The notes under the pieces: generated by a model
The model's database searches: none
The model's input: only the letters and a program-made list of their open reading frames with translations
Told to the model about the DNA's origin: nothing
Part shown: one piece after another, positions 1 to 24,807 of the stretch
Numbering within the stretch: the first letter of the stretch is position 1
How the letters are laid out: the number at the start of each line of letters is the position of its first letter
Program-made: the position numbers and the translations under genes
Virus record (IMG/VR): IMGVR_UViG_3300025889_000892
Location: 1-24,807 of that record
From: a virus
Lineage: Duplodnaviria > Caudoviricetes
Reading direction: 5' to 3' (one strand)
DNA: 24,807 bases

Positions 1-512
1 CTAAATAAAAATTTATCATTATCATCTAATTTATTTTGATCGTTTTCTAAATATAGCCAATCACCAATAATTAATTCATCACATGAATCTATCATATCAA
101 CCTTTATACCTTTAAATGCTCTAGGGTAATTATAAAATGGTAATGATGACGTTATTCTTAATGGGTTACTTTTAAATAAATTATCAAATGATTCATCACC
201 TATGTTTCTTAAAATTTCATTATACTTAGTAATTAAAACAGCTCTTTCACAGTCTATTTTCCCGTGTGTTATATTTTGAAAAATACTTTTTATAGCAATA
301 GATGGCTTTGTTTTTGCTTTTATACCAAAACCATAAGAAACAAAATGTGGTGAATCTATATCTAGTCTTTCCCCTGGATATGGATACCTAAAGTTATTAT
401 TTAAATATGAAAAATTATCTTGAATTAATACAGATTCAAACTCTTGCTCTAATTGCCTTGGTATTGTGCATTTTTTAAATATTTCATTTTTATTTGCTAT
501 TATTTTTTTCAT
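1..512 (-). CDS. Tgl-like (protein-glutamine gamma-glutamyltransferase / transglutaminase-like) protein, runs off the left edge (partial, >170 aa)
   Basis: Hand translation from ATG at 512 is open to position 1: MKKIIANKNEIF...KPSIAIKSIFQNITHGKIDCERAVLITKYNEILRNIGDESFDNLF...GDWLYLENDQNKLDDNDKFLF. It aligns by eye with B. subtilis Tgl as recalled (PSKAIRDIAENGPFYAFECATAIVIIYYLALIDTIGEDKFNASF...GDCLYFKN). Confidence 0.7.
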   Translation of the reverse strand, partial: MKKIIANKNEIFKKCTIPRQLEQEFESVLIQDNFSYLNNNFRYPYPGERLDIDSPHFVSYGFGIKAKTKPSIAIKSIFQNITHGKIDCERAVLITKYNEILRNIGDESFDNLFKSNPLRITSSLPFYNYPRAFKGIKVDMIDSCDELIIGDWLYLENDQNKLDDNDKFLF

Positions 513-518
513 GATTAT

Positions 519-554
519 ATTATGAATCATGAGTTAATAATTGTCAACTATTAA
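519..554 (-). promoter_or_regulatory. sigma70-type promoter with operator-like palindrome; predicted leaderless transcript
   Basis: TTGACA (547-542), 17 nt spacer, CATAAT (524-519); predicted +1 falls on the ATG at 512; -35 lies within TTAATAATTG-T-CAACTATTAA. Confidence 0.7.
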
Positions 555-2005
555 TAACCCATAGCCCCATACTTACGATCATCAATCCATTCAGGTGATT
601 CTATTTCTTGTCGCTCCATTTTAATACATTCATATTTTATTATATCCATAAAGTGATCATCTTTTTTTAATGGTTTGTTAATCATTTCTTTTTTATCTTG
701 CATTTTAGCCGTTGCATAAGTATCCCAACTATATCGACTAAATTCCCAAAGCACCCCAGTTAAGTCATTAAACACATATAACTTAGGTTTTCGTTTAACC
801 TCACCTGATATAGTTTTGACGACTTTGATACGTTTCTTAACAGCATTTATACCCATTGCATTGTCTTTCGCACAAAGTATAGTATCAATACCATTTCTTT
901 GAAATTCCAAGCGAATCGTATGATTGTTTTCTTGATCTTCATCTGGATGTCTAAATATAACATCTGGTTTCTGTGATGATGTATCTATCTGACAAAATAA
1001 AGGCTTTAGACCATCTCTTTTAGTTATAATCATCCTAGCATAATCGGCAATAATCATTGATTCTACAGGTGCTTTAAGTTCTTCAACAACATATATTGTA
1101 TCTTCTTGATGATCATATAAAAATCGACACCAATGATGACAAGTTTTTTCGTGGGGGTCGACGCCCTCATGCAACTCATATCTACCAGGATTATCTTTAA
1201 TCATTCTTTTATAATTAAATCTATCTACCTTATTAATTTCTCCAAATTCTTTATAAACTAACCCTTGTGATAAATGCGGTTTACCTAATACCCGACTTTC
1301 ATATTCATCGGGGTCAACGGTTGTTAAATAATTTTCTTTTGCTTGTTCTGAAATAAAAGGGTTATCAAGTATGCTTAAAACAGTTGTTTCAACTAGCTTG
1401 TTATTTGATTCCCATAAAAAATTGACTAACCTTGTAAACCCACTAAGCGATGTAAATGTAAACATAACAACACCATCTCTATCTGTTGTTCTAGCTAGTG
1501 ATTCTTGGTAAAAGTCCCAGGGACATTCCTCATCTAACCAAATTAAATCAAGATCCATACCTTGAATTGCTTCCCTACCTTGTTGATATGATCTAAATAT
1601 TGATTTAGCACCATTTTTCATTAAAAGAATATCATTATTATAACCTCTAATTGGATTATATTTTCCGTAGTCTACTTCACTTTTTTTAATTAATTTATTT
1701 ATTTTGGCCTGTTGAACTTGTACACTTAATTTATAATCAACTGTTGCGCACATAATTTGTATATTAGGCACTTCTTCAAGAATTTGTGCGACAACACCGG
1801 CACCTAATTCAGTTTTTCCCGATCTGTTACCGCCAAATGTAACAAATATTTTTTTTTCACCGCCATATTTTATGCGATCAATTATAGTATTACGCATCTT
1901 GAATTGTTTTTCATACTTTTCCCATTGCATGAAATCAAGCATGTTTTCATTTCTATATTGTTTATATTTTAATAATTTATTTCTTAAATGTATTAAATTA
2001 TTCAT
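551..2005 (-). CDS. terL: Terminase large subunit
   Basis: Walker A GGNRSGKT, Walker B LIWLDEE, coupling motif FTFTS, C-terminal RNase H-like nuclease (GVDP ... DDHFMD). Confidence 0.95.
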   Translation of the reverse strand: MNNLIHLRNKLLKYKQYRNENMLDFMQWEKYEKQFKMRNTIIDRIKYGGEKKIFVTFGGNRSGKTELGAGVVAQILEEVPNIQIMCATVDYKLSVQVQQAKINKLIKKSEVDYGKYNPIRGYNNDILLMKNGAKSIFRSYQQGREAIQGMDLDLIWLDEECPWDFYQESLARTTDRDGVVMFTFTSLSGFTRLVNFLWESNNKLVETTVLSILDNPFISEQAKENYLTTVDPDEYESRVLGKPHLSQGLVYKEFGEINKVDRFNYKRMIKDNPGRYELHEGVDPHEKTCHHWCRFLYDHQEDTIYVVEELKAPVESMIIADYARMIITKRDGLKPLFCQIDTSSQKPDVIFRHPDEDQENNHTIRLEFQRNGIDTILCAKDNAMGINAVKKRIKVVKTISGEVKRKPKLYVFNDLTGVLWEFSRYSWDTYATAKMQDKKEMINKPLKKDDHFMDIIKYECIKMERQEIESPEWIDDRKYGAMGY

Positions 2006-2176: not shown

Positions 2177-3004
2177 TCAATTTTTATATTGTGAAAAAAA
2201 CCCTAAACTTTTTTTAATTCCTTCACTAGCGTATTTAAGTGCATCACCATCCTTTTTCACAGCGGCAAGGACAACATCTGAATTGTTTCTTAGGTCGTCA
2301 CTGGCGTAGTGAAGTGCAAAACCATCTTGTTTCACAGCAGCAAGGACAACCTCTTTATCATTTTTTATCTTATCACTGGCGTATTGAAGTGCCAAACCAC
2401 TCTGATTCACAGCGGCAAGGACAACATCTGAATTGTTTCTTAGGTCGTCACTAGCGTATTGAAGTGCCCAACCATCCTGTTTCACAGCATAAAGTACAAC
2501 ATCTTTATTGTTTTTTAATTCATCACTGGCGAATTGAAGTGCAAAACCACTCTTTTTCACAGCGGCAAGGACAAACTCTTTATCGGTTCTTAGGTCGTCA
2601 CTAGCGTATTGAAGTGTAGAACCATTCTTTTTCACAGCGGCAAGGACAACCTCTTTATCCTTTCTTAGGTCGTCACTTGCGCATTGAAGTGCATATACAT
2701 TCTCTTTCACAGCAGCTAAAACAACTTCTTTATCATTTCTTAGTTCCCAACTAGCCCATTTAAGTACCGAATAATTGCACTCACAGTCTAAAACTTTCTC
2801 ATAATCTAGATTCACAGCTACAAGTACAACCTCTTTATCGTTTTTTAGCTTATCACTAGCGTATTGAAGTGCCCAACCATCCTGTTTCACAGCATAAAGT
2901 ACAACCTCTTTATCGTTTCTTAGTTCGGCACTAGCGTATTCAAGCGCCCAACCATTCTCTTTCACAGCGGCAATTGCTTTTTCTTTATCATCATATATTC
3001 TCAT
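2177..3004 (-). CDS. DUF4116-like helical repeat protein (10 x 25-aa repeats, one with a 10-aa insertion)
   Basis: Repeat consensus NDKEVVLAAVKQNGxALQYASDELK; AGGAG SD in the tail of the upstream gene. Confidence 0.9.
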   Translation of the reverse strand: MRIYDDKEKAIAAVKENGWALEYASAELRNDKEVVLYAVKQDGWALQYASDKLKNDKEVVLVAVNLDYEKVLDCECNYSVLKWASWELRNDKEVVLAAVKENVYALQCASDDLRKDKEVVLAAVKKNGSTLQYASDDLRTDKEFVLAAVKKSGFALQFASDELKNNKDVVLYAVKQDGWALQYASDDLRNNSDVVLAAVNQSGLALQYASDKIKNDKEVVLAAVKQDGFALHYASDDLRNNSDVVLAAVKKDGDALKYASEGIKKSLGFFSQYKN

Positions 3005-3638
3005 TATTAAATCTCCTTAAACTTTCTTGAAGTTCTTCACTAGCGTATTGAAGTGCATCACCATTCTGTTTCACAGCGGCAATGACAAACTCTTTATCGT
3101 TTCTTAGGTCGTCACTGGCGCAATAAAGTGCAGAAGCACGCTCTTTCACAGCGGAAAGGACAAACTCTTTATCGTTTCTTAGGTCGTCACTGGCGCAATA
3201 AAGTGCAGAAGCACGCTCTTTCACAGCGGCAAGGACAACCTCTGGATTGTTTCTTAGGTCGTCACTAGCGAATTGAAGTACCCAGCCATGCTCTTTCACA
3301 GCGGCAAGGACAACCTCTTTATTGTTACTTAGGTCGGCACTGGCGAATTCAAGTGCCCAACCACTCTTTTTCACAGCAGCAAGGATAAACTCTTTATCAT
3401 TTCTTAGTTCATAACTGGCGTATTGAATTGCATCACAATTCTGTTTTACAGCGGCAAGGACAAACTCTTTGTCGTTTCTTAGTTCTTCACTGGCGAATCG
3501 AAGTGCACCACCATACTGATTCACAGCGGCAAGGACAACCTCTTTATTGTTTTTTAGGTCATCACTGGCGTATTGAAGTCTACCACCATCCTCTTTTACA
3601 GCTGCAATTGCTTTTTCTTTATCATTATATATTATCAT
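2991..3638 (-). CDS. DUF4116-like helical repeat protein (8 repeats)
   Basis: Same 25-aa repeat; N-cap MIIYNDKEKAIAAVK, C-cap ESLRRFNNENI. Confidence 0.9.
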   Translation of the reverse strand: MIIYNDKEKAIAAVKEDGGRLQYASDDLKNNKEVVLAAVNQYGGALRFASEELRNDKEFVLAAVKQNCDAIQYASYELRNDKEFILAAVKKSGWALEFASADLSNNKEVVLAAVKEHGWVLQFASDDLRNNPEVVLAAVKERASALYCASDDLRNDKEFVLSAVKERASALYCASDDLRNDKEFVIAAVKQNGDALQYASEELQESLRRFNNENI

Positions 3639-4122
3639 TATTAAATCTCCTTAAACTTTCTTGAAGTTCTTCACTAGCGTATCGAAGTGCCCAACCATTC
3701 TGATTCACAGCGGCAAGGACAACCTCTTTATTGTTTCTTAGGTCGTCACTGGCGTATTGAAGTGCAGAACCACGCTCTTTCACAGCGGCAAGGACAACCT
3801 CTTTATCGTTTCTTAGGTCGTCACTGGCGTATTCAAGTGCAAAACCCTCCTGTTTCACAGCGGCAAGGACAACATCTTTATTGTTTTTTAGTTCATAACT
3901 AGCGCGTTGAAGTGCAAAACCCTCCTGTTTCACAGCGGCAAGGACAACATCTTTATTGTTTTTTAGGTCGTCACTGGCAAAAAAAAGTGCCAAACCATCC
4001 TGTTTCACAGCGGCAAGGACAACCTCTTTGTCGTTTCTTAGTTCATAACTGGCGTATTGAAGTCTACCACCATCCTCTTTTACAGCTGCAATTGCTTTTT
4101 CTTTATCATTATATATTCTCAT
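3625..4122 (-). CDS. DUF4116-like helical repeat protein (6 repeats)
   Basis: Same 25-aa repeat; N-cap MRIYNDKEKAIAAVK, C-cap ESLRRFNNDNI. Confidence 0.9.
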   Translation of the reverse strand: MRIYNDKEKAIAAVKEDGGRLQYASYELRNDKEVVLAAVKQDGLALFFASDDLKNNKDVVLAAVKQEGFALQRASYELKNNKDVVLAAVKQEGFALEYASDDLRNDKEVVLAAVKERGSALQYASDDLRNNKEVVLAAVNQNGWALRYASEELQESLRRFNNDNI

Positions 4123-4606
4123 TATTAAAACTCCTTAAACTTCCTTGAAGTTCTTTACTTGCGCATTGAAGTGCATATACATTCTCTTTTACAGCGGCAA
4201 TGACAACCTCTTTATTGTTTTTTAGTTCTTCACTAACGTAATGAAGTGCAAAACCATTCTCTTTCACAGCGGCAAGGACAACTTCTTTATCATTTTTTAG
4301 CTCATCACTGGCGAATTCAAGTGCCCAACCGTTCTGTTTTACAGCAGCAATGACAACTTCTTTATCATTTTTTAGCTCATCACTGGCGTAGTTAAGTGAC
4401 ATCCAATTCTGTTTCACAGCAGCAAGTACAACCTCTAAATTGTTTCTTAGTTCATCACTGGCGCATTGAAGTGTCCAACCGTTTTCTTTTACAGCAGCAA
4501 GGACAACCTCTTTATCGTTTTTTAGGTCGTCACTAATGTATGGAAGTACCCAAGGATTCTGTTTCACAGCGGCAATTGCTTTTTCTTTATCATCATATAT
4601 TATCAT
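4109..4606 (-). CDS. DUF4116-like helical repeat protein (6 repeats)
   Basis: Same 25-aa repeat; N-cap MIIYDDKEKAIAAVK, C-cap GSLRSFNNENI; ATGA overlap with upstream gene. Confidence 0.9.
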   Translation of the reverse strand: MIIYDDKEKAIAAVKQNPWVLPYISDDLKNDKEVVLAAVKENGWTLQCASDELRNNLEVVLAAVKQNWMSLNYASDELKNDKEVVIAAVKQNGWALEFASDELKNDKEVVLAAVKENGFALHYVSEELKNNKEVVIAAVKENVYALQCASKELQGSLRSFNNENI

Positions 4607-5745
4607 CTGAAAATAAACTCATAATCATCATTAAGGTAGTTAAGAACCTCACGATTTTGTTTCACAAGGGTACGTAAAAAATCTTTATCTTTTTGTAAGA
4701 AATAACATGCGTGTTCAATTGCCTCGGCATTCTGCTTTACAGCAGCGCGTACAAATTGCTTATCGTTATTAAAGCTTGGGGCAAAAAAAAGTGATTTAGC
4801 ATTCTCTTTGACCGCTTCAAATACAAACTTTTTATCTTTTTTTAAATAAGCACTGGCATGTTTAAATGCATAACCATACTTTTTTACAGCAGCAAGCACA
4901 ACATCTTTATCGTTTTTTAATTCATCACTGGCAAATTCAAGAATTGATTTATAGTAAGATTCTATACCATCCATATTTACAGCGACAAGTACAACTTGTT
5001 TATCATTTTTCAGGGAATCACTGGCAAATTCAAGTGCAAAACCATTCTGTTTTACAGCCGCAAGAACAACCTTTTTATCGTTTTGAAAGCTTGGTGCATA
5101 TTCAAGCACCATCCCATTTTTTTTCATAGCTTCAATAACAAATTCTCTATTATTTTTGAGTTCTTCACTGGCATATTGAAATGACTTACTATTTCGATCG
5201 TCACCGACATATTGGTGAATTGCCACACCATGCTTATCAATAGCTGCAAGAACAACTTCTTTATCATTTTTTAACTCATGACTTGCGTATTTAAGATGAT
5301 AACCATTATGTTTCACAGCAGCAAGAACAACCTCTTTATCATTTCTGAATTTAGCACTTGCATATTCAAGTGCCCCACGCTCCTGTTTCACAGCTTCAAG
5401 CACAACCTCTTTCTCATTTTTTAGTTTGAAACCGGTGAATTCAAGTGCCGGACCATAATCTTTGATAGCGGCAAGTACAATTTCTTTATCATTTTTGAAT
5501 TCGTCATAGACGTATTCAAGTACATGACCTGAATCTTTCACAGCGGTAAGTATAAACTCCTTATCGTTTCTTAGTTCTTCACTGGCATATTTAAGTGACC
5601 CAGGGCTTTGTTGTATAGCACTAAGCATAAATTCCTTATTATTGCTTTGTTGCTCAGTGAGGTAATTAAGACGAAAACCATTCTCAAAATCAGGCGATCC
5701 CCATACTTTACCGGCATAAGGATCTGTATAATATTTTGTATTCAT
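4603..5745 (-). CDS. DUF4116-like helical repeat protein (about 13 more divergent repeats, unique N-terminus)
   Basis: Repeats such as NDKEVVLAAVKHNGYHLKYASHELK; two repeats carry insertions. Confidence 0.88.
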   Translation of the reverse strand: MNTKYYTDPYAGKVWGSPDFENGFRLNYLTEQQSNNKEFMLSAIQQSPGSLKYASEELRNDKEFILTAVKDSGHVLEYVYDEFKNDKEIVLAAIKDYGPALEFTGFKLKNEKEVVLEAVKQERGALEYASAKFRNDKEVVLAAVKHNGYHLKYASHELKNDKEVVLAAIDKHGVAIHQYVGDDRNSKSFQYASEELKNNREFVIEAMKKNGMVLEYAPSFQNDKKVVLAAVKQNGFALEFASDSLKNDKQVVLVAVNMDGIESYYKSILEFASDELKNDKDVVLAAVKKYGYAFKHASAYLKKDKKFVFEAVKENAKSLFFAPSFNNDKQFVRAAVKQNAEAIEHACYFLQKDKDFLRTLVKQNREVLNYLNDDYEFIFR

Positions 5746-6161
5746 TATTTTAAATAATCCATTAATTCATTTATTATTTTTTCTGTAGTATGTTGCGTGG
5801 ATGTAGCATATTTTTTTAATGCTGACATTATAATATCTTTATCTTTTCTTAAATCATTTTTTATATATTGAAATGTTGATGGCTTTTTACTTACCGCTGC
5901 TATCACAATATCTTTATCTTTTTTTAGTTCATCACTAACAAAATAAAGACTATGCGGAAATTGATTAACCGCTGCTAGCGCAACGTCTTTATCATTTTTC
6001 AATTCGTCACTAACATATTGAAATACCTTACCGTCTTTTGTAACCGCAGCAATAACAACCTCTTTGTTGTTTTTTATATCATCATTAGCATTTATCAAAT
6101 CTAATGGTTTTTTTTTCACATAGTCTACTATTAATTTTTTATCTAAAGAATTTATAGTCAT
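5745..6161 (-). CDS. DUF4116-like helical repeat protein (about 4-5 divergent repeats), first gene of the array
   Basis: NNKEVVIAAVTKDGKVFQYVSDELK-type repeats; GGAGG SD upstream; TAATG overlap with next gene. Confidence 0.85.
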   Translation of the reverse strand: MTINSLDKKLIVDYVKKKPLDLINANDDIKNNKEVVIAAVTKDGKVFQYVSDELKNDKDVALAAVNQFPHSLYFVSDELKKDKDIVIAAVSKKPSTFQYIKNDLRKDKDIIMSALKKYATSTQHTTEKIINELMDYLK

Positions 6162-6191
6162 ATTATTACCTCCAATTATATTGTATATAAT

Positions 6192-6223
6192 ATAATAACG
6201 TATCTGTTAACAGGTGTCAACTA
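6192..6223 (-). promoter_or_regulatory. sigma70-type promoter for the repeat-protein array (proximal)
   Basis: TTGACA (6220-6215), 17 nt, TATTAT (6197-6192); -35 in TAGTTGACA motif. Confidence 0.7.
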
Positions 6224-6308: not shown

Positions 6309-6340
6309 ATTTTATTTTATATATTAATAGATGTCAACTA
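6309..6340 (-). promoter_or_regulatory. sigma70-type promoter (distal), upstream of hairpin and repeat array
   Basis: TTGACA (6337-6332), 17 nt, TAAAAT (6314-6309); -35 in TAGTTGACA motif. Confidence 0.72.
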
Positions 6341-6410: not shown

Positions 6411-6869
6411 CTACATTATTTGTTCAGATTTAATAAGGCTTGCTATCTCTTTCTTTAATGTTTCAGGATCAACATTTCCATCGGTATTAGTTTGCTCAAT
6501 GGTATCCTTCCAACCAAATTGTTTTAATGCAAAAATAGGACCCGCAGCACCGTTGTTTTTATTGAGAGAACGCTCATAACTTGACTCAACAAATGTTCTC
6601 GCTACTTTTAGTAAGTCGGAGAATTCAGGGTATTCCATGTACTCATAAAATTGTGATCTGCCATAAAAACCACAAACCATTGCTAAACCTGTTATTGTAG
6701 GTTTTTCGTTAAATTCTAGGTCCTGAGAACAATGCTCAAAATATTTTATGATCTTTTTCTGAATATCTTTGAATTTAAATTTTTTAGGTTGTCCAGCAGT
6801 TATTGGTAAGTTTTTAGGCTCTTCAATGTCTTTGATATTTTGAATCGCGATCAAATCGGCGTAGTTCAT
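6411..6869 (-). CDS. terS: Terminase small subunit (P22 gp3-like DNA packaging protein)
   Basis: GQPKKF...KYFEHC...KPTITGLAMVCGF..RSQFYEY...EFSDLLKVARTFVE...GPIFALKQFGWKD matches the gp3-type small terminase pattern. Confidence 0.88.
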   Translation of the reverse strand: MNYADLIAIQNIKDIEEPKNLPITAGQPKKFKFKDIQKKIIKYFEHCSQDLEFNEKPTITGLAMVCGFYGRSQFYEYMEYPEFSDLLKVARTFVESSYERSLNKNNGAAGPIFALKQFGWKDTIEQTNTDGNVDPETLKKEIASLIKSEQIM

Positions 6870-8277: not shown

Positions 8278-9045
8278 TTAAATGCCCAATAAGGCTTTTA
8301 TGTCATCAAAATAGGCGTCGGCCTGCTCTTTTGAGCATCGTTCCTGACTTTTAGACTGCCCAATAATCTTATTAAGCTGCAATCGCTTACGCTGATCCCA
8401 TCTTTGCATCACAGTAATCTCATACATCGAAACCGATTCTTTAACCGAATCAATATTCAAATCCTGAACCACTTTGGCTATGTAGCGATTTCTTTTACCA
8501 GGGCTAATACCTTGAGCCTTGGCATAACGCCATAGGGTTTTAAAATCCAAATTCCCAAAAAGACGACGACGACGAGCTGCACCCTCGCGCGCATCTTTTT
8601 TGTAGTCGTCTTTATGAATATTATTTATATTATTACTATAATAAAGATCTGATGGGACTTTGTGTTGGACTTTGTGTTGGACTTTGTGTTGCATCGAAAT
8701 TTTTCGATATAATATTTCATCGTAACCATTAATAGAAATAACAGTAAATCTTTGTGTTACCTTTTGTGTTAGGTTTTGTGTTAGCTCCAAAAATTTGAGG
8801 CTAGTTCTGACGCTTTGTTTTGTAGCGTTTAAATTTTTCATTAAATTTGAGATAGTAGTAACAAAACTTCCCTTTGCTACAGTTATTTTTTTACCATTGA
8901 CAATTTGTTCTGAATCTGCATAATTCGCCATTGATAAACAATACATATAAAGCTTAAAAACTAATGGATTTTTGTTGTTAAATATCATGCTATCGAATAA
9001 AATTCTGTTTAACATTAAAAATCCTTTTGTGTTTTTTTCATTCAT
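8278..9045 (-). CDS. Phage replication initiator / replisome organiser
   Basis: KGFLMLNRILFDS...FKLYMYCLSMANY...KGSFVTTISNLMKNLNATKQSVRTSLKFLE winged-helix pattern; start moved to ATG 9045 (CAGGAG SD) from the ORF-track 9129. Confidence 0.85.
   Translation of the reverse strand: MNEKNTKGFLMLNRILFDSMIFNNKNPLVFKLYMYCLSMANYADSEQIVNGKKITVAKGSFVTTISNLMKNLNATKQSVRTSLKFLELTQNLTQKVTQRFTVISINGYDEILYRKISMQHKVQHKVQHKVPSDLYYSNNINNIHKDDYKKDAREGAARRRRLFGNLDFKTLWRYAKAQGISPGKRNRYIAKVVQDLNIDSVKESVSMYEITVMQRWDQRKRLQLNKIIGQSKSQERCSKEQADAYFDDIKALLGI
8655..8786. repeat. Iteron-like 12-bp direct repeats (probable replication origin) inside the initiator gene
   Basis: GGACTTTGTGTT x3 at 8655-8690 and TTTGTGTTAnnT x3 at 8751-8786, sharing core TTTGTGTT. 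Confidence 0.75.
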
Positions 9046-9114
9046 AAAATACTCCTGTAAATAGATATTGAAATAACAAAGAATATTTGCTAATATATCT
9101 AATGGTTGTTGAAT

Positions 9115-9152
9115 AAAAACCCATCTCATTATCCTGTTAAAGATGGGTTTTT
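9115..9152. terminator. Inverted repeat upstream of the initiator gene (terminator/attenuator-like)
   Basis: AAAAACCCATCT (9115-9126) / AGATGGGTTTTT (9141-9152), T-tracts on both strands. Confidence 0.55.
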
Positions 9153-11077: not shown

Positions 11078-11317
11078 TTATAATTGTGATTTTAGATATT
11101 TAACTAATATTTTGTCACCATCTAATGAGTTACATGGTCCCATAATTTCAATTCTTTTTATTTCATCATCATATTTAATTTTATTTATTTTTTTATTAGA
11201 TTCAATTTTTTCTATTTGTTTACTAAATTCATATTTATTTATTTCTTTACTAAATTCAACTGTTTTAGTGTGAGTGTGAGTGTGAGTGATAGTACATTTA
11301 TGTCTTATAGATATCAT
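11078..11317 (-). CDS. Low-complexity Lys/Ile-rich hypothetical protein
   Basis: Starts 2 nt after helicase stop; THTHTHT and EFSKxIxK repeats. Confidence 0.5.
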   Translation of the reverse strand: MISIRHKCTITHTHTHTKTVEFSKEINKYEFSKQIEKIESNKKINKIKYDDEIKRIEIMGPCNSLDGDKILVKYLKSQL

Positions 11318-23667: not shown

Positions 23668-23913
23668 TTAAATGAAAATAGCGTATAATAGCATAAAAAA
23701 ACTATGGCCTGCAATTGTCGCAAAATAATCATTAAACTCCATAGTATGTTTATCTGAGTTACATCCATCATACAATTCTTTTCCAAATGCTATAATATGA
23801 ACTAAAAGACTACCTAGAAAAAGATCATATAAACAAGCAAACGAAATTATAAACCCCCCAATACAATGTTTTTTCTTGTCTTCTTGTAAAGTATCAAAAA
23901 ATTTCTTAATCAT
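23668..23913 (-). CDS. Small membrane protein (DK-x-H ... KE-x-x-D ... D motif, YfiM/VanZ-like)
   Basis: DKKKHCIGGFIIS, GKELYD, DYFATIAG with hydrophobic helices. Confidence 0.6.
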   Translation of the reverse strand: MIKKFFDTLQEDKKKHCIGGFIISFACLYDLFLGSLLVHIIAFGKELYDGCNSDKHTMEFNDYFATIAGHSFFMLLYAIFI

Positions 23914-24807
23914 GTTGTATTCCTTTTTTTAATGCTTCGAGAAAATCTAATAATTTAATTGTTTCGTGTTTTAAATTATAATTTCTTAACATTTCTTTTT
24001 TAATTTTTTTGCGTTCCTTATCATCTTGCCTAGTTATTTTTCTAAGTTTATTTAATATAGAATTAGCAAACAAAGTAGGATCGTTTTCAGATAGCGTAAT
24101 ATCACCTTTTGTATTTTTATATGGCTCAACATTTGACGCAACTAATGGAACACCAATACTTGCCATTTCTAAATATTTTACATTAGATTTACATCGATTA
24201 AATTCACTATCACGCAATGGTGCTATTGCAATATCTAGACACAAATCAGCTAAATGTTGTGGGTATTTTGATATATGCCAGTCAACACGCTTAAAATCGA
24301 TTAATGGATGGTCCTCTAACCAAATTGGTTTAAATCCACCATATCTGATAATAAACTCAAAATCATCTTGTGTATCAAGTATTGGTTTTAAACCTCTATA
24401 GACAATTCTTAAATCTTCGTCATGGCTAGCACCGCCAACATAACCTATTCTAAATCTATTACAAGAATGCTTTTTCAATTTTGGGTTCCATGTATTTGTA
24501 TCGATGCAATTAGGCGCTACATAAACAGGCTTATCACCAATAATATGCTTAATTGAATTAGCTAAATATTCAGTTGAGCATATTACCGCATCACTTCTAT
24601 ATAAATGTTCTGCGGCCCACATATGATGCTCTTTCCATGGCAAATGACTAGATAATGGTACTTCACCTATAGAATCGTCTATTTCAGCTACTATTTTTAC
24701 ATTTGGATAATCTTTCTTTAGTTCGGATATTAAAGCTAGTGCTTCTTTGTTTTGTATTCGTTGAAATATAATAATATCAAAAAACTTAAAAGCAGAATAA
24801 AGCTTTT
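23906..24807 (-). CDS. GT-B (family 4-like) glycosyltransferase, 5'-partial
   Basis: Frame is open to the right edge (DIIIFQR...KIVAEIDD), then RIGYVGGASH, DIAIAPL, FNRCKSNVKYLEMASIGVPLVAS. Confidence 0.9.
   Translation of the reverse strand, partial: KLYSAFKFFDIIIFQRIQNKEALALISELKKDYPNVKIVAEIDDSIGEVPLSSHLPWKEHHMWAAEHLYRSDAVICSTEYLANSIKHIIGDKPVYVAPNCIDTNTWNPKLKKHSCNRFRIGYVGGASHDEDLRIVYRGLKPILDTQDDFEFIIRYGGFKPIWLEDHPLIDFKRVDWHISKYPQHLADLCLDIAIAPLRDSEFNRCKSNVKYLEMASIGVPLVASNVEPYKNTKGDITLSENDPTLFANSILNKLRKITRQDDKERKKIKKEMLRNYNLKHETIKLLDFLEALKKGIQHD

What the first reader, a model, noticed from the sequence alone, without database searches (positions are those of the whole stretch)
2177..6161. 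Six-gene repertoire of 25-aa repeat proteins with fixed scaffold and hypervariable positions
Seen: over 45 repeats. In the four downstream genes the scaffold N[DN]KEVVLAAVK-xxxx-AL-xx-ASD[DE]L[KR] is nearly fixed, while the 4 residues after AVK/AVN (ENGW, QDGW, ENVY, KNGS, KSGF, QSGL, KDGD, EDGG, QYGG, QNCD, EHGW, ERAS, QEGF, QNWM, QNPW) and the 2 after L (QY, EY, RF, EF, YC, HY, FF, QR, NY, QC) vary widely in chemistry. Knowledge: this scaffold/variable-surface design underlies ankyrin, LRR, TALE and PPR binders; DUF4116 has no established function. Inference: a phage-encoded modular binder library, either protein binders (anti-defence or host takeover) or a one-repeat-one-base nucleic-acid code. 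This is the best candidate for an undescribed system in the window.
Basis: partly seen in the sequence, partly recalled or inferred. Interest (0 to 1): 0.85.

Follow-up and report, generated by a model that had tools for sequence, protein, structure and literature searches.

The report
Phage cassette of diversifying DUF4116 solenoids
A small uncultured aquatic phage has inserted six chained genes for helical repeat proteins of a known but unstudied family (DUF4116) between its two DNA-packaging genes; a few positions per repeat change as fast as or faster than silent DNA, so the proteins likely form a shuffled set of binders for host proteins, whose targets are unknown.

Summary
Observation confirmed: six overlapping minus-strand genes, 46 units of 25 aa, all Pfam DUF4116, between small and large terminase of a phage of about 36 kb; 0 of 33 relative loci carry them. 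The truly variable positions are 13, 15 and 18, not six, and they are the family-wide ones. The model is a three-helix solenoid with 15/18/19 on helix 2. New here: the units recombine; codon models show positive selection (LR 35.5, above all 59 neutral-plus-conversion simulations); position 15 outruns synonymous divergence in 28 of 29 other recently homogenised arrays; contigs from other runs differ in g6 by 21 of 360 nt against 7 of 2931 elsewhere, mostly at positions 12-19, and one likely has an extra unit. The signal is moderate: close-pair pN/pS is about 1.1-2, and not above 1 in a second phage lineage. A nucleic-acid code is unlikely (acidic proteins, 6-10 units, about 16 states at position 15). 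Host, targets and expression are unknown. Tandem DUF4116 sets recur in other phages, and this scan noted them before on other DNA. New variant of a known kind.

The parts
5745..6161 (-). g1, 138 aa, 4 divergent DUF4116 units; first gene of the cassette; pI 8.9
4603..5745 (-). g2, 380 aa, 12 anchored units, two with insertions (+13, +6 aa) and two of 24 aa; unique 34-aa N-terminus; overlaps g1 by 1 nt
4109..4606 (-). g3, 165 aa, 6 units, shared N-cap and C-cap; overlaps g2 by 4 nt; pI 4.8
3625..4122 (-). g4, 165 aa, 6 units; overlaps g3 by 14 nt; pI 5.1
2991..3638 (-). g5, 215 aa, 8 units; overlaps g4 by 14 nt; modelled as a three-helix-per-unit solenoid; pI 4.9
2177..3004 (-). g6, 275 aa, 10 units, unit 3 with a 10-aa insertion; overlaps g5 by 14 nt; differs between populations; pI 5.1
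6192..6220 (-). sigma-70-like promoter candidate TTGACA-17-TATTAT (11 of 12) directly before g1
   Evidence: its AGTTGACA core occurs 6 times in the window, all on the minus strand, 0.88 expected
6309..6337 (-). second sigma-70-like promoter candidate TTGACA-17-TAAAAT (11 of 12)
6169..6173 (-). Shine-Dalgarno GGAGG, 7 nt before the g1 start
   Evidence: sequence
4131..4135 (-). AGGAG inside the C-cap codons of g3, 8 nt before the g4 start
   Evidence: sequence
3647..3651 (-). AGGAG inside the C-cap codons of g4, 8 nt before the g5 start
   Evidence: sequence
3013..3017 (-). AGGAG inside the C-cap codons of g5, 8 nt before the g6 start
   Evidence: sequence
6411..6869 (-). terminase small subunit (upstream flank; context)
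   Evidence: PF16677, phrog_606
551..2005 (-). terminase large subunit (downstream flank; context)
   Evidence: PF03237, phrog_2

Best explanation
The six genes are an inserted accessory cassette of DUF4116 repeat genes whose 75-bp units recombine, and they likely encode a set of free helical solenoids predicted to bind different proteins of the infected bacterium through positions 13, 15, 18 and 19. Shown: insertion between TerS and TerL, absent from relatives; gene overlap with a ribosome-binding motif built into each C-cap of g3-g5; mosaic units; purifying selection on the scaffold and faster-than-silent change at position 15 (18 and 19 less firmly). Inferred: transcription as one unit from the sigma-70-like promoters before g1, hence early; duplication of one capped gene into g3-g6 by unequal crossing-over, each copy arriving already coupled; conversion homogenises the scaffold while selection keeps or renews the variable residues; with no catalytic domain or signal peptide, each protein would act by binding and blocking or sequestering its target, most plausibly a fast-changing host defence or regulatory protein.
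For: Insertion: 0 of 33 relative loci with sequence upstream of TerL (TerL 45-66% identical; redundant; 5 more of 38 begin inside or at TerL) hold a DUF4116 unit. Cassette is 11% of a 35,977-bp circle. Coupling and promoters. Fold: pLDDT 96.7, pTM 0.89, helices at unit positions 3-12, 14-19, 22-25; 15, 18, 19, 22 follow i, i+3, i+4, i+7 spacing (inference from DSSP). Recombination: 56 of 171 biallelic site pairs fail the four-gamete test, rising from 0.13 within 15 nt to 0.53 at 60 nt or more. Selection: M2a vs M1a LR 25.7, omega 3.9, sites 15/18/19 at posterior 0.99 or more; on a FastTree tree LR 35.5 against a maximum of 26.1 in 59 simulations without positive selection but with conversion; codon 15 taken a priori P 0-0.03. 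Other arrays: pN15 above the array's own pS in 28 of 29 arrays below 60% of synonymous saturation, pN18 in 22, flanking synonymous sites in 13. Populations: run X11 has 21 differences in 360 nt of g6 against 7 in 2931 nt of its other listed pieces; of 19 listed, 15 are non-synonymous and 8 of 11 residue changes lie at 12-19 (P 0.007). Protein binding: F-box, ankyrin, TPR/SH3 and kinase-like fusions in relatives; 16 of 29 residues at position 15 are aromatic.
Against: No target, host or expression shown. Taken post hoc, the most variable codons are not beyond a fully neutral conversion model (P 0.05-0.52 for the top codon, 0.27-0.95 for the top three). The nominal M2a test is unreliable here: 26 of 59 null runs passed LR 6, and the null is my own simple model. 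Among close unit pairs the excess is modest: position 15 at 1.54 (CI 1.17-1.99) in genomes and 2.0 (1.3-2.9) in other viruses at 12 nt or fewer, CI including 1 at 8 nt or fewer, and 0.53-0.78 in the second phage lineage. Near-identical contigs L001-L003 differ in g1-g6 by 3, 0 and 10 SNPs, none at positions 13, 15, 18 or 19 of a g3-g6 unit. In the 98% strain L049, g1, g2 and part of g3 have pN/pS 0.56, below 1. Population variants come from short unitigs that could be paralogues or a related phage.
Confidence: 0.5

Rival explanations
1. Binders aimed at a eukaryote: the phage infects a protist- or animal-associated bacterium, and the proteins act on the eukaryotic cell, like sponge-phage ankyrin proteins or the phage WO eukaryotic association module.
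For: Many of the 78 best genome loci are Chlamydiae, Rickettsiales, Legionellales and similar; close homologues in Naegleria and other protists; the nearest folds are giant-virus proteins, some with F-box or kinase; another phage has a DUF4116-ankyrin fusion near its terminase (L010).
Against: No signal peptide, N-terminal effector leader or F-box in any of the six; the same hit list also holds Clostridia, Bacilli, Bacteroidia and Pelagibacteraceae; cultured phages of Fusobacterium and Pseudoalteromonas carry DUF4116-like genes.
Confidence: 0.2
2. Drift or dosage: one useful binder (or a nearly neutral gene) was amplified by repeat slippage; positions 13/15/18 merely tolerate change and all paralogues do the same job.
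For: The variable positions are the same across 725 family units; post hoc neutral simulations fit; close-pair ratios are near 1 in several sets; no listed variant at these positions among near-identical contigs.
Against: A neutral site should exceed its array's pS about half the time, yet position 15 does so in 28 of 29 arrays while flanking silent sites do in 13 of 29; observed LR exceeds all 59 nulls; all six frames are intact in every full copy seen, and a 36-kb genome spends 11% on them.
Confidence: 0.2
3. A TALE- or PPR-like code: each unit reads one base of DNA or RNA through positions 13/15/18.
For: Homogenised scaffold with retained variable codons is what TALE arrays show (recalled); conserved K at 3, 11 and K/R at 25; aromatic residues at 15 and 19 could stack on bases.
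Against: g3-g6 are acidic (pI 4.8-5.1, net -4 to -9); 6-10 units would read too few bases for genome specificity; position 15 has 4.04 bits across the family, about 16 effective states against four bases; no nuclease, helix-turn-helix or RNA-binding Pfam domain among 60 long relatives at E 1e-5 (top five families shown).
Confidence: 0.07
4. Accessory factors of packaging or of the virion, given the place between the terminase genes.
For: Position between TerS and TerL.
Against: Absent from relatives with 45-66% TerL identity; the same gap holds an unrelated two-gene insert in L008/L009; in a second lineage the genes lie among replication genes.
Confidence: 0.03

Closest known systems
Pfam DUF4116 (PF13475); PHROG 31839
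   Same: Same 25-aa unit, same conserved and variable positions, alpha-solenoid model (also predicted in PMC8078820, passages read).
   Different: Here six short, domain-free, coupled paralogues in a 36-kb phage; in cellular genomes 62 of 78 loci had a single gene, often long or fused. No function found in print in my searches.
High-internal-conservation repeats of fungal NLRs (HNWD WD40 domains; PMC13449251, passages read)
   Same: Near-identical repeats with a few hypervariable positions under diversifying selection, gain and loss of repeats, exchange between paralogues.
   Different: Different fold (WD40 against alpha-solenoid); no NACHT/NB-ARC or effector domain here; virus side rather than host side; internal identity lower (72-86% nt); selection weaker.
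Phage ankyrin accessory proteins (ANKp, 10.1101/608950, abstract and outline read; phage WO eukaryotic association module, PMC5062602, search listing only)
   Same: Phage-borne eukaryote-like repeat proteins as accessory genes.
   Different: Not ankyrin repeats; no secretion signal seen; no eukaryotic association shown; multi-paralogue recombining cassette.
TALE and PPR nucleic-acid readers (features recalled)
   Same: Fixed helical scaffold with a few variable residues per repeat.
   Different: 25 aa, not 33-35; acidic; short arrays; wide residue alphabet.
Diversity-generating retroelements (features recalled)
   Same: Phage-encoded variable binding surface.
   Different: No reverse transcriptase among the ORFs scanned; variation is not adenine-specific; diversification is by unit recombination.

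Membership tests
DUF4116 (PF13475) | Score above the Pfam gathering cut-off | tested here: met
   184-519 bits against 24.9 for all six
DUF4116 (PF13475) | 25-aa period with the family's conservation profile | tested here: met
   41 of 46 units are 25 aa; entropy profile rho 0.69 against 725 family units
DUF4116 (PF13475) | Alpha-solenoid fold like other members | tested here: met
   Model pLDDT 96.7; of 29 BFVD matches at E 0.001 or better most are labelled DUF4116
Phage moron (accessory insertion) | Inserted between genes adjacent in relatives | tested here: met
   0 of 33 relative loci with sequence upstream of TerL hold a unit
Phage moron (accessory insertion) | Own promoter and terminator | tested here: inconclusive
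   Two 11/12 sigma-70-like sites before g1; no terminator-like site after g6; consensus matches only
High-internal-conservation diversifying repeats | Repeats within and between paralogues highly alike, with recombination | tested here: met
   pS 0.27, 40% of saturation; four-gamete failures rise with distance
High-internal-conservation diversifying repeats | Positive selection at a few positions | tested here: met
   LR above 59 of 59 nulls; a priori codon 15 P 0-0.03, post hoc not significant; moderate
High-internal-conservation diversifying repeats | Repeat-number polymorphism between strains | tested here: inconclusive
   One unitig of run X15 reads as one extra 75-nt unit; L018 against L030 in a second lineage, 301 against 379 aa; full contigs of this phage all have the same count
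High-internal-conservation diversifying repeats | Variable residues set ligand specificity | not testable with these tools
   needs binding assays
TALE / PPR | 33-35-aa repeat matching the family profile | tested here: not met
   25-aa period; no TAL or PPR family among Pfam hits at E 0.01
TALE / PPR | Sequence-specific nucleic-acid binding | not testable with these tools
   indirect only: acidic pI
Ankyrin / armadillo | 33-aa or about 42-aa repeat matching the family profile | tested here: not met
   25-aa period; no such Pfam hit
Ankyrin / armadillo | Fold superposes on solved members | tested here: inconclusive
   best Z 5.8, rmsd 8.6 over 214 residues; Foldseek none at E 0.001
Diversity-generating retroelement | Reverse transcriptase in the element | tested here: inconclusive
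   none among 35 window ORFs and 12 plus-strand ORFs of L154; small ORFs and L154's reverse strand not scanned; trans action not excluded
Diversity-generating retroelement | Variation confined to template adenines | tested here: not met
   codon 15 varies among T/G/A, G/T/A/C and G/T, while adenines such as 12.2 are invariant in 29 of 29

The most novel reading that the evidence does not exclude
Small phages maintain a recombination-driven, selected library of programmable solenoid binders: DUF4116 is a natural DARPin-like scaffold with a specificity stripe at positions 13/15/18/19, units are swapped between coupled paralogues to make new inhibitors of host defence proteins, and the design arose separately in at least two unrelated aquatic phage lineages.
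Probability: 0.3. Interest if true: 0.8.

Novelty: new variant of a known kind. Interest (0 to 1): 0.5.

Why it matters
DUF4116 is a large family (bacteria, protists, giant viruses, phages) with no function found in the papers searched. This locus gives it a testable handle: small, soluble, domain-free paralogues, a defined set of candidate specificity positions, and natural alleles that differ there. If they bind distinct host proteins, it would show a phage-side counterpart of the shuffled-repeat receptors of fungal immunity and offer a compact 25-aa binder scaffold. If not, it is an ordinary tandem amplification of a known repeat.

Tried and rejected
Host search: no TerL relative confirmed in genome contigs; portal not found at E 1e-20 in 146, 301 and 301 genomes drawn around three DUF4116-rich bacteria (no positive control, shows nothing); cultured phages give TerL matches of only 21-27% among the 25 listed. 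Host unknown. Expression: no RNA holder listed. Solved structures: no sequence match (best E 0.28), no Foldseek match at E 0.001, best VIA-align Z 5.8; this does not show the fold is new. ESM Atlas without PF13475 gave only 0.78-0.79 hits to unnamed clusters. The nominal P of the M2a test (2.6e-6) was dropped in favour of the simulation-calibrated comparison. Regional mutation hotspot at codon 15: silent sites in codons 14, 16, 17 are below the array mean in the window (0.10 against 0.27). Short plus-strand ORFs over the array are frame shadows of the repeats (not tested further). Assembly artefact rejected. No complex prediction was sent, because no partner is claimed. Literature: 'DUF4116' 4 papers, 3 listed; 'PF13475' 2; 'DUF 4116', 'IPR025197', 'function 4116' 0; a five-term search on phage paralogous solenoids gave 7, none on this by title or abstract start. 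Supplements were not opened and subscription papers are not covered.
Full report
Observation. The window is part of a tailed phage: TerL 551-2005, TerS 6411-6869, SNF2 helicase, VRR-NUC, SU10-type adaptor and tail genes, nearly all on the minus strand. Contig L154 overlaps both window ends by 127 identical bases, giving a circle of 35,977 bp with SU10-type portal, glycosyltransferases and a methyltransferase. Between TerS and TerL lie six ORFs, g1 to g6, all DUF4116 far above the cut-off. I anchored 46 units, 41 of exactly 25 aa. In the 29 regular units of g3-g6, all distinct, the variable positions are 15, 18 and 13; position 12 has three residues, 14 is mostly Gly and 19 mostly Tyr/Phe/Cys.

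Anatomy. The genes overlap by 1, 4, 14, 14 and 14 nt. g3-g6 share an N-cap; g3-g5 share a C-cap whose codons hold AGGAG 8 nt before the next start, so a duplicated gene would arrive translationally coupled (inference). Two TTGACA-17 promoter candidates precede g1; promoter-like sites overall are not above shuffles (13 against 17.7), but their AGTTGACA core occurs six times in the window, all on the coding strand, against 0.88 expected. Among 38 relative loci with TerL 45-66% identical, 33 show sequence upstream of TerL and none holds a DUF4116 unit; many of these loci are redundant. The cassette is therefore a lineage-specific insertion taking 11% of the genome. g3-g6 are acidic, g2 neutral, g1 basic; none shows a signal peptide or other domain.

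Structure. AlphaFold2 on g5 with a 124-row alignment gives pLDDT 96.7 and three helices per unit at positions 3-12, 14-19 and 22-25. Position 13 is the turn; 15, 18, 19 and 22 have the spacing of one helix face. That is inferred from DSSP; I could not measure exposure. No solved structure matches well. Predicted viral structures that match are mostly giant-virus DUF4116 proteins, some named F-box or kinase. PMC8078820 (passages read) also models DUF4116 as an alpha-solenoid.

Is the variation special? The entropy profile follows that of 725 units from 120 homologues (rho 0.69) and the within-protein profile of 14 homologues (rho 0.78); position 15 is the family's most variable, 4.04 bits. So the pattern belongs to the family. 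The question is whether it is tolerated or selected. In the window pS is 0.27; pN is 0.59, 0.43 and 0.42 at 15, 13 and 18, and 0.16 outside positions 12-15 and 18-19. Units are mosaics: four-gamete failures rise with distance. A site model gives LR 25.7 with omega 3.9 at 15, 18, 19, but conversion inflates this test: 26 of 59 simulations without positive selection passed the nominal cut-off. With the same pipeline the real data give 35.5, above all 59 (maximum 26.1). A tree-free test is mixed: the top codon chosen afterwards is not significant (P 0.05-0.52), codon 15 chosen beforehand from the family is (P 0-0.03). Of 78 non-redundant other arrays with 10 or more units, 71 had enough flanking sequence to set a saturation ceiling; in the 29 below 60% of it, pN15 exceeds the array's pS in 28, pN18 in 22, pN13 in 19, and silent sites flanking codon 15 in 13. 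These arrays are not all independent, since several belong to one phage lineage. Close unit pairs give smaller numbers: 1.5 for positions 15 and 18 in genomes, 2.0 for 15 in other viruses, but 0.5-0.8 for 15 in the second phage lineage. Reading: real but moderate selection for change, or for keeping each unit's residue while the scaffold is homogenised. Either way the identity of residue 15 (and likely 18) matters.

Populations. Near-identical contigs differ little (0-19 SNPs). The 98% strain L049 covers only g1, g2 and 77 codons of g3: 17 non-synonymous to 8 synonymous changes against 28 to 77 in 12 other genes (a thirteenth left out as misaligned at an indel; P 0.0003), pN/pS 0.56, with 5 of 17 at positions 13 or 18. 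Four more distant runs were laid on the cassette and four on g6 (two runs in common). TerS, g1 and g2 are covered by long, close pieces (for example 8 differences in 2337 nt), g3-g6 by short, more divergent ones. In X11 a 360-nt piece spanning g6's unique insertion has 21 differences against 7 in 2931 nt elsewhere; of the 19 listed, 15 are non-synonymous and 8 of 11 residue changes lie at 12-19, including W15K, whose two base changes are also listed in X13, X14 and a minor X3 contig. Joints in X14 and X15 read, by hand, as a last unit with NHPY at 12-15, and in X15 as one extra 75-nt unit. X3 matches the window. These are unitigs and could come from paralogues or a sister phage.

Elsewhere. 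A scan of viral contigs gave 62 new loci, 38 with two or more DUF4116 genes, against 16 of 78 genome loci (flanks 8 and 6 kb, redundancy not removed). One unrelated lineage (about 45% GC, PolA-like, primase-like and SNF2-like genes by inspection) carries 2-6 genes per locus with its own caps and overlaps, and a gene of 301 aa in L018 has 379 aa in L030. Only 3 of 50,697 GenBank phage records matched g6. Among 60 long relatives the partner domains with a distinct match were PPDK_N (5), ankyrin, F-box, TPR/Sel1/SH3, GT2 and Imm11 (1 each); none was a nuclease or nucleic-acid-binding domain.

Mechanism. Most likely the cassette is transcribed early as one unit, the free solenoids bind host proteins through the helix-2 stripe and act by occlusion, and recombination among 75-bp units plus selection renews specificities. 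Insertion, coupling motifs, mosaicism and the selection pattern are shown; expression, exposure, protein ligand and target class are inferred. Rivals are a eukaryote-directed role (0.2), drift or dosage (0.2), a nucleic-acid code (0.07) and a packaging role (0.03). The host could not be found.

Comparison and novelty. It is a member of DUF4116. It evolves like the high-internal-conservation WD40 repeats of fungal NLRs (PMC13449251, passages read) without being one. It is not a TALE, PPR, ankyrin or DGR by the features tested. The four DUF4116/PF13475 papers I opened (PMC8078820, 10.1101/2022.04.12.488082, PMC13119156, 10.1101/2022.05.19.492674; passages only) give no tested function and no phage array; supplements were not read. 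Earlier notes of this scan describe tandem DUF4116 or DUF4116-like sets in other phages and a gut bacterium; they are unchecked AI notes, and none lies on look-alike DNA. What this locus adds is the selection and population evidence. Verdict: new variant of a known kind, interest 0.5.

Noticed in passing
window 3-530 (complete as L001 6193-6939): Transglutaminase-like gene (PF20085 TGL, 43.5 bits over cut-off 23.7) inserted between TerL and portal with its own TTGACA-17-CATAAT site at 549-519; found only in copies of this phage among the loci searched. A second accessory insertion.
   Followed up: partly
window 542, 6215, 6332, 8115, 11053, 13120 (minus strand): Six exact AGTTGACA sites before genes, 0.88 expected; likely the phage's conserved promoter core, possibly also a repressor site.
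   Followed up: partly
L008 8764-9228, L009 855-1259: In a relative the TerS-TerL gap holds a small HTH-like ORF and a truncated ORF; L009 has an extra inserted stretch there that truncates it further. The gap looks like an insertion hotspot.
   Followed up: no
L015, L018, L023-L027, L030, L035-L047, L054, L057, L059, L066, L067: A second, unrelated phage lineage (mostly about 45% GC) with 2-6 capped, often overlapping DUF4116 genes per locus among replication genes, mosaic between contigs.
   Followed up: partly
L078 2419-7311, L082, L102 (two genes), L124: Large proteins joining a PPDK_N/PEP-utiliser kinase-like module to 8-20 DUF4116 units in gammaproteobacteria, one of them Ca. Endonucleobacter.
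   Followed up: no
L010 238-1017 and 5128-5733: Phage with a DUF4116-ankyrin-like fusion and a separate ankyrin-like gene near its terminase genes.
   Followed up: no
L154 6235-11424 and window 23906-24805: Cluster of glycosyltransferases, a short UDP-glucose dehydrogenase-like ORF and a methyltransferase after the capsid gene; possible virion or DNA modification module.
   Followed up: no
G002 (genome of L092): 73 DUF4116 matches, the listed ones mostly in about nine open frames of 1100-1460 aa, in a chlamydial symbiont of a social amoeba.
   Followed up: no
window 11143-11259 and 8655-8691: Short tandem arrays (period 27 and 12) inside ORFs 11078-11317 and 8278-9129; L049 lacks 6 nt in the first ORF.
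   Followed up: no
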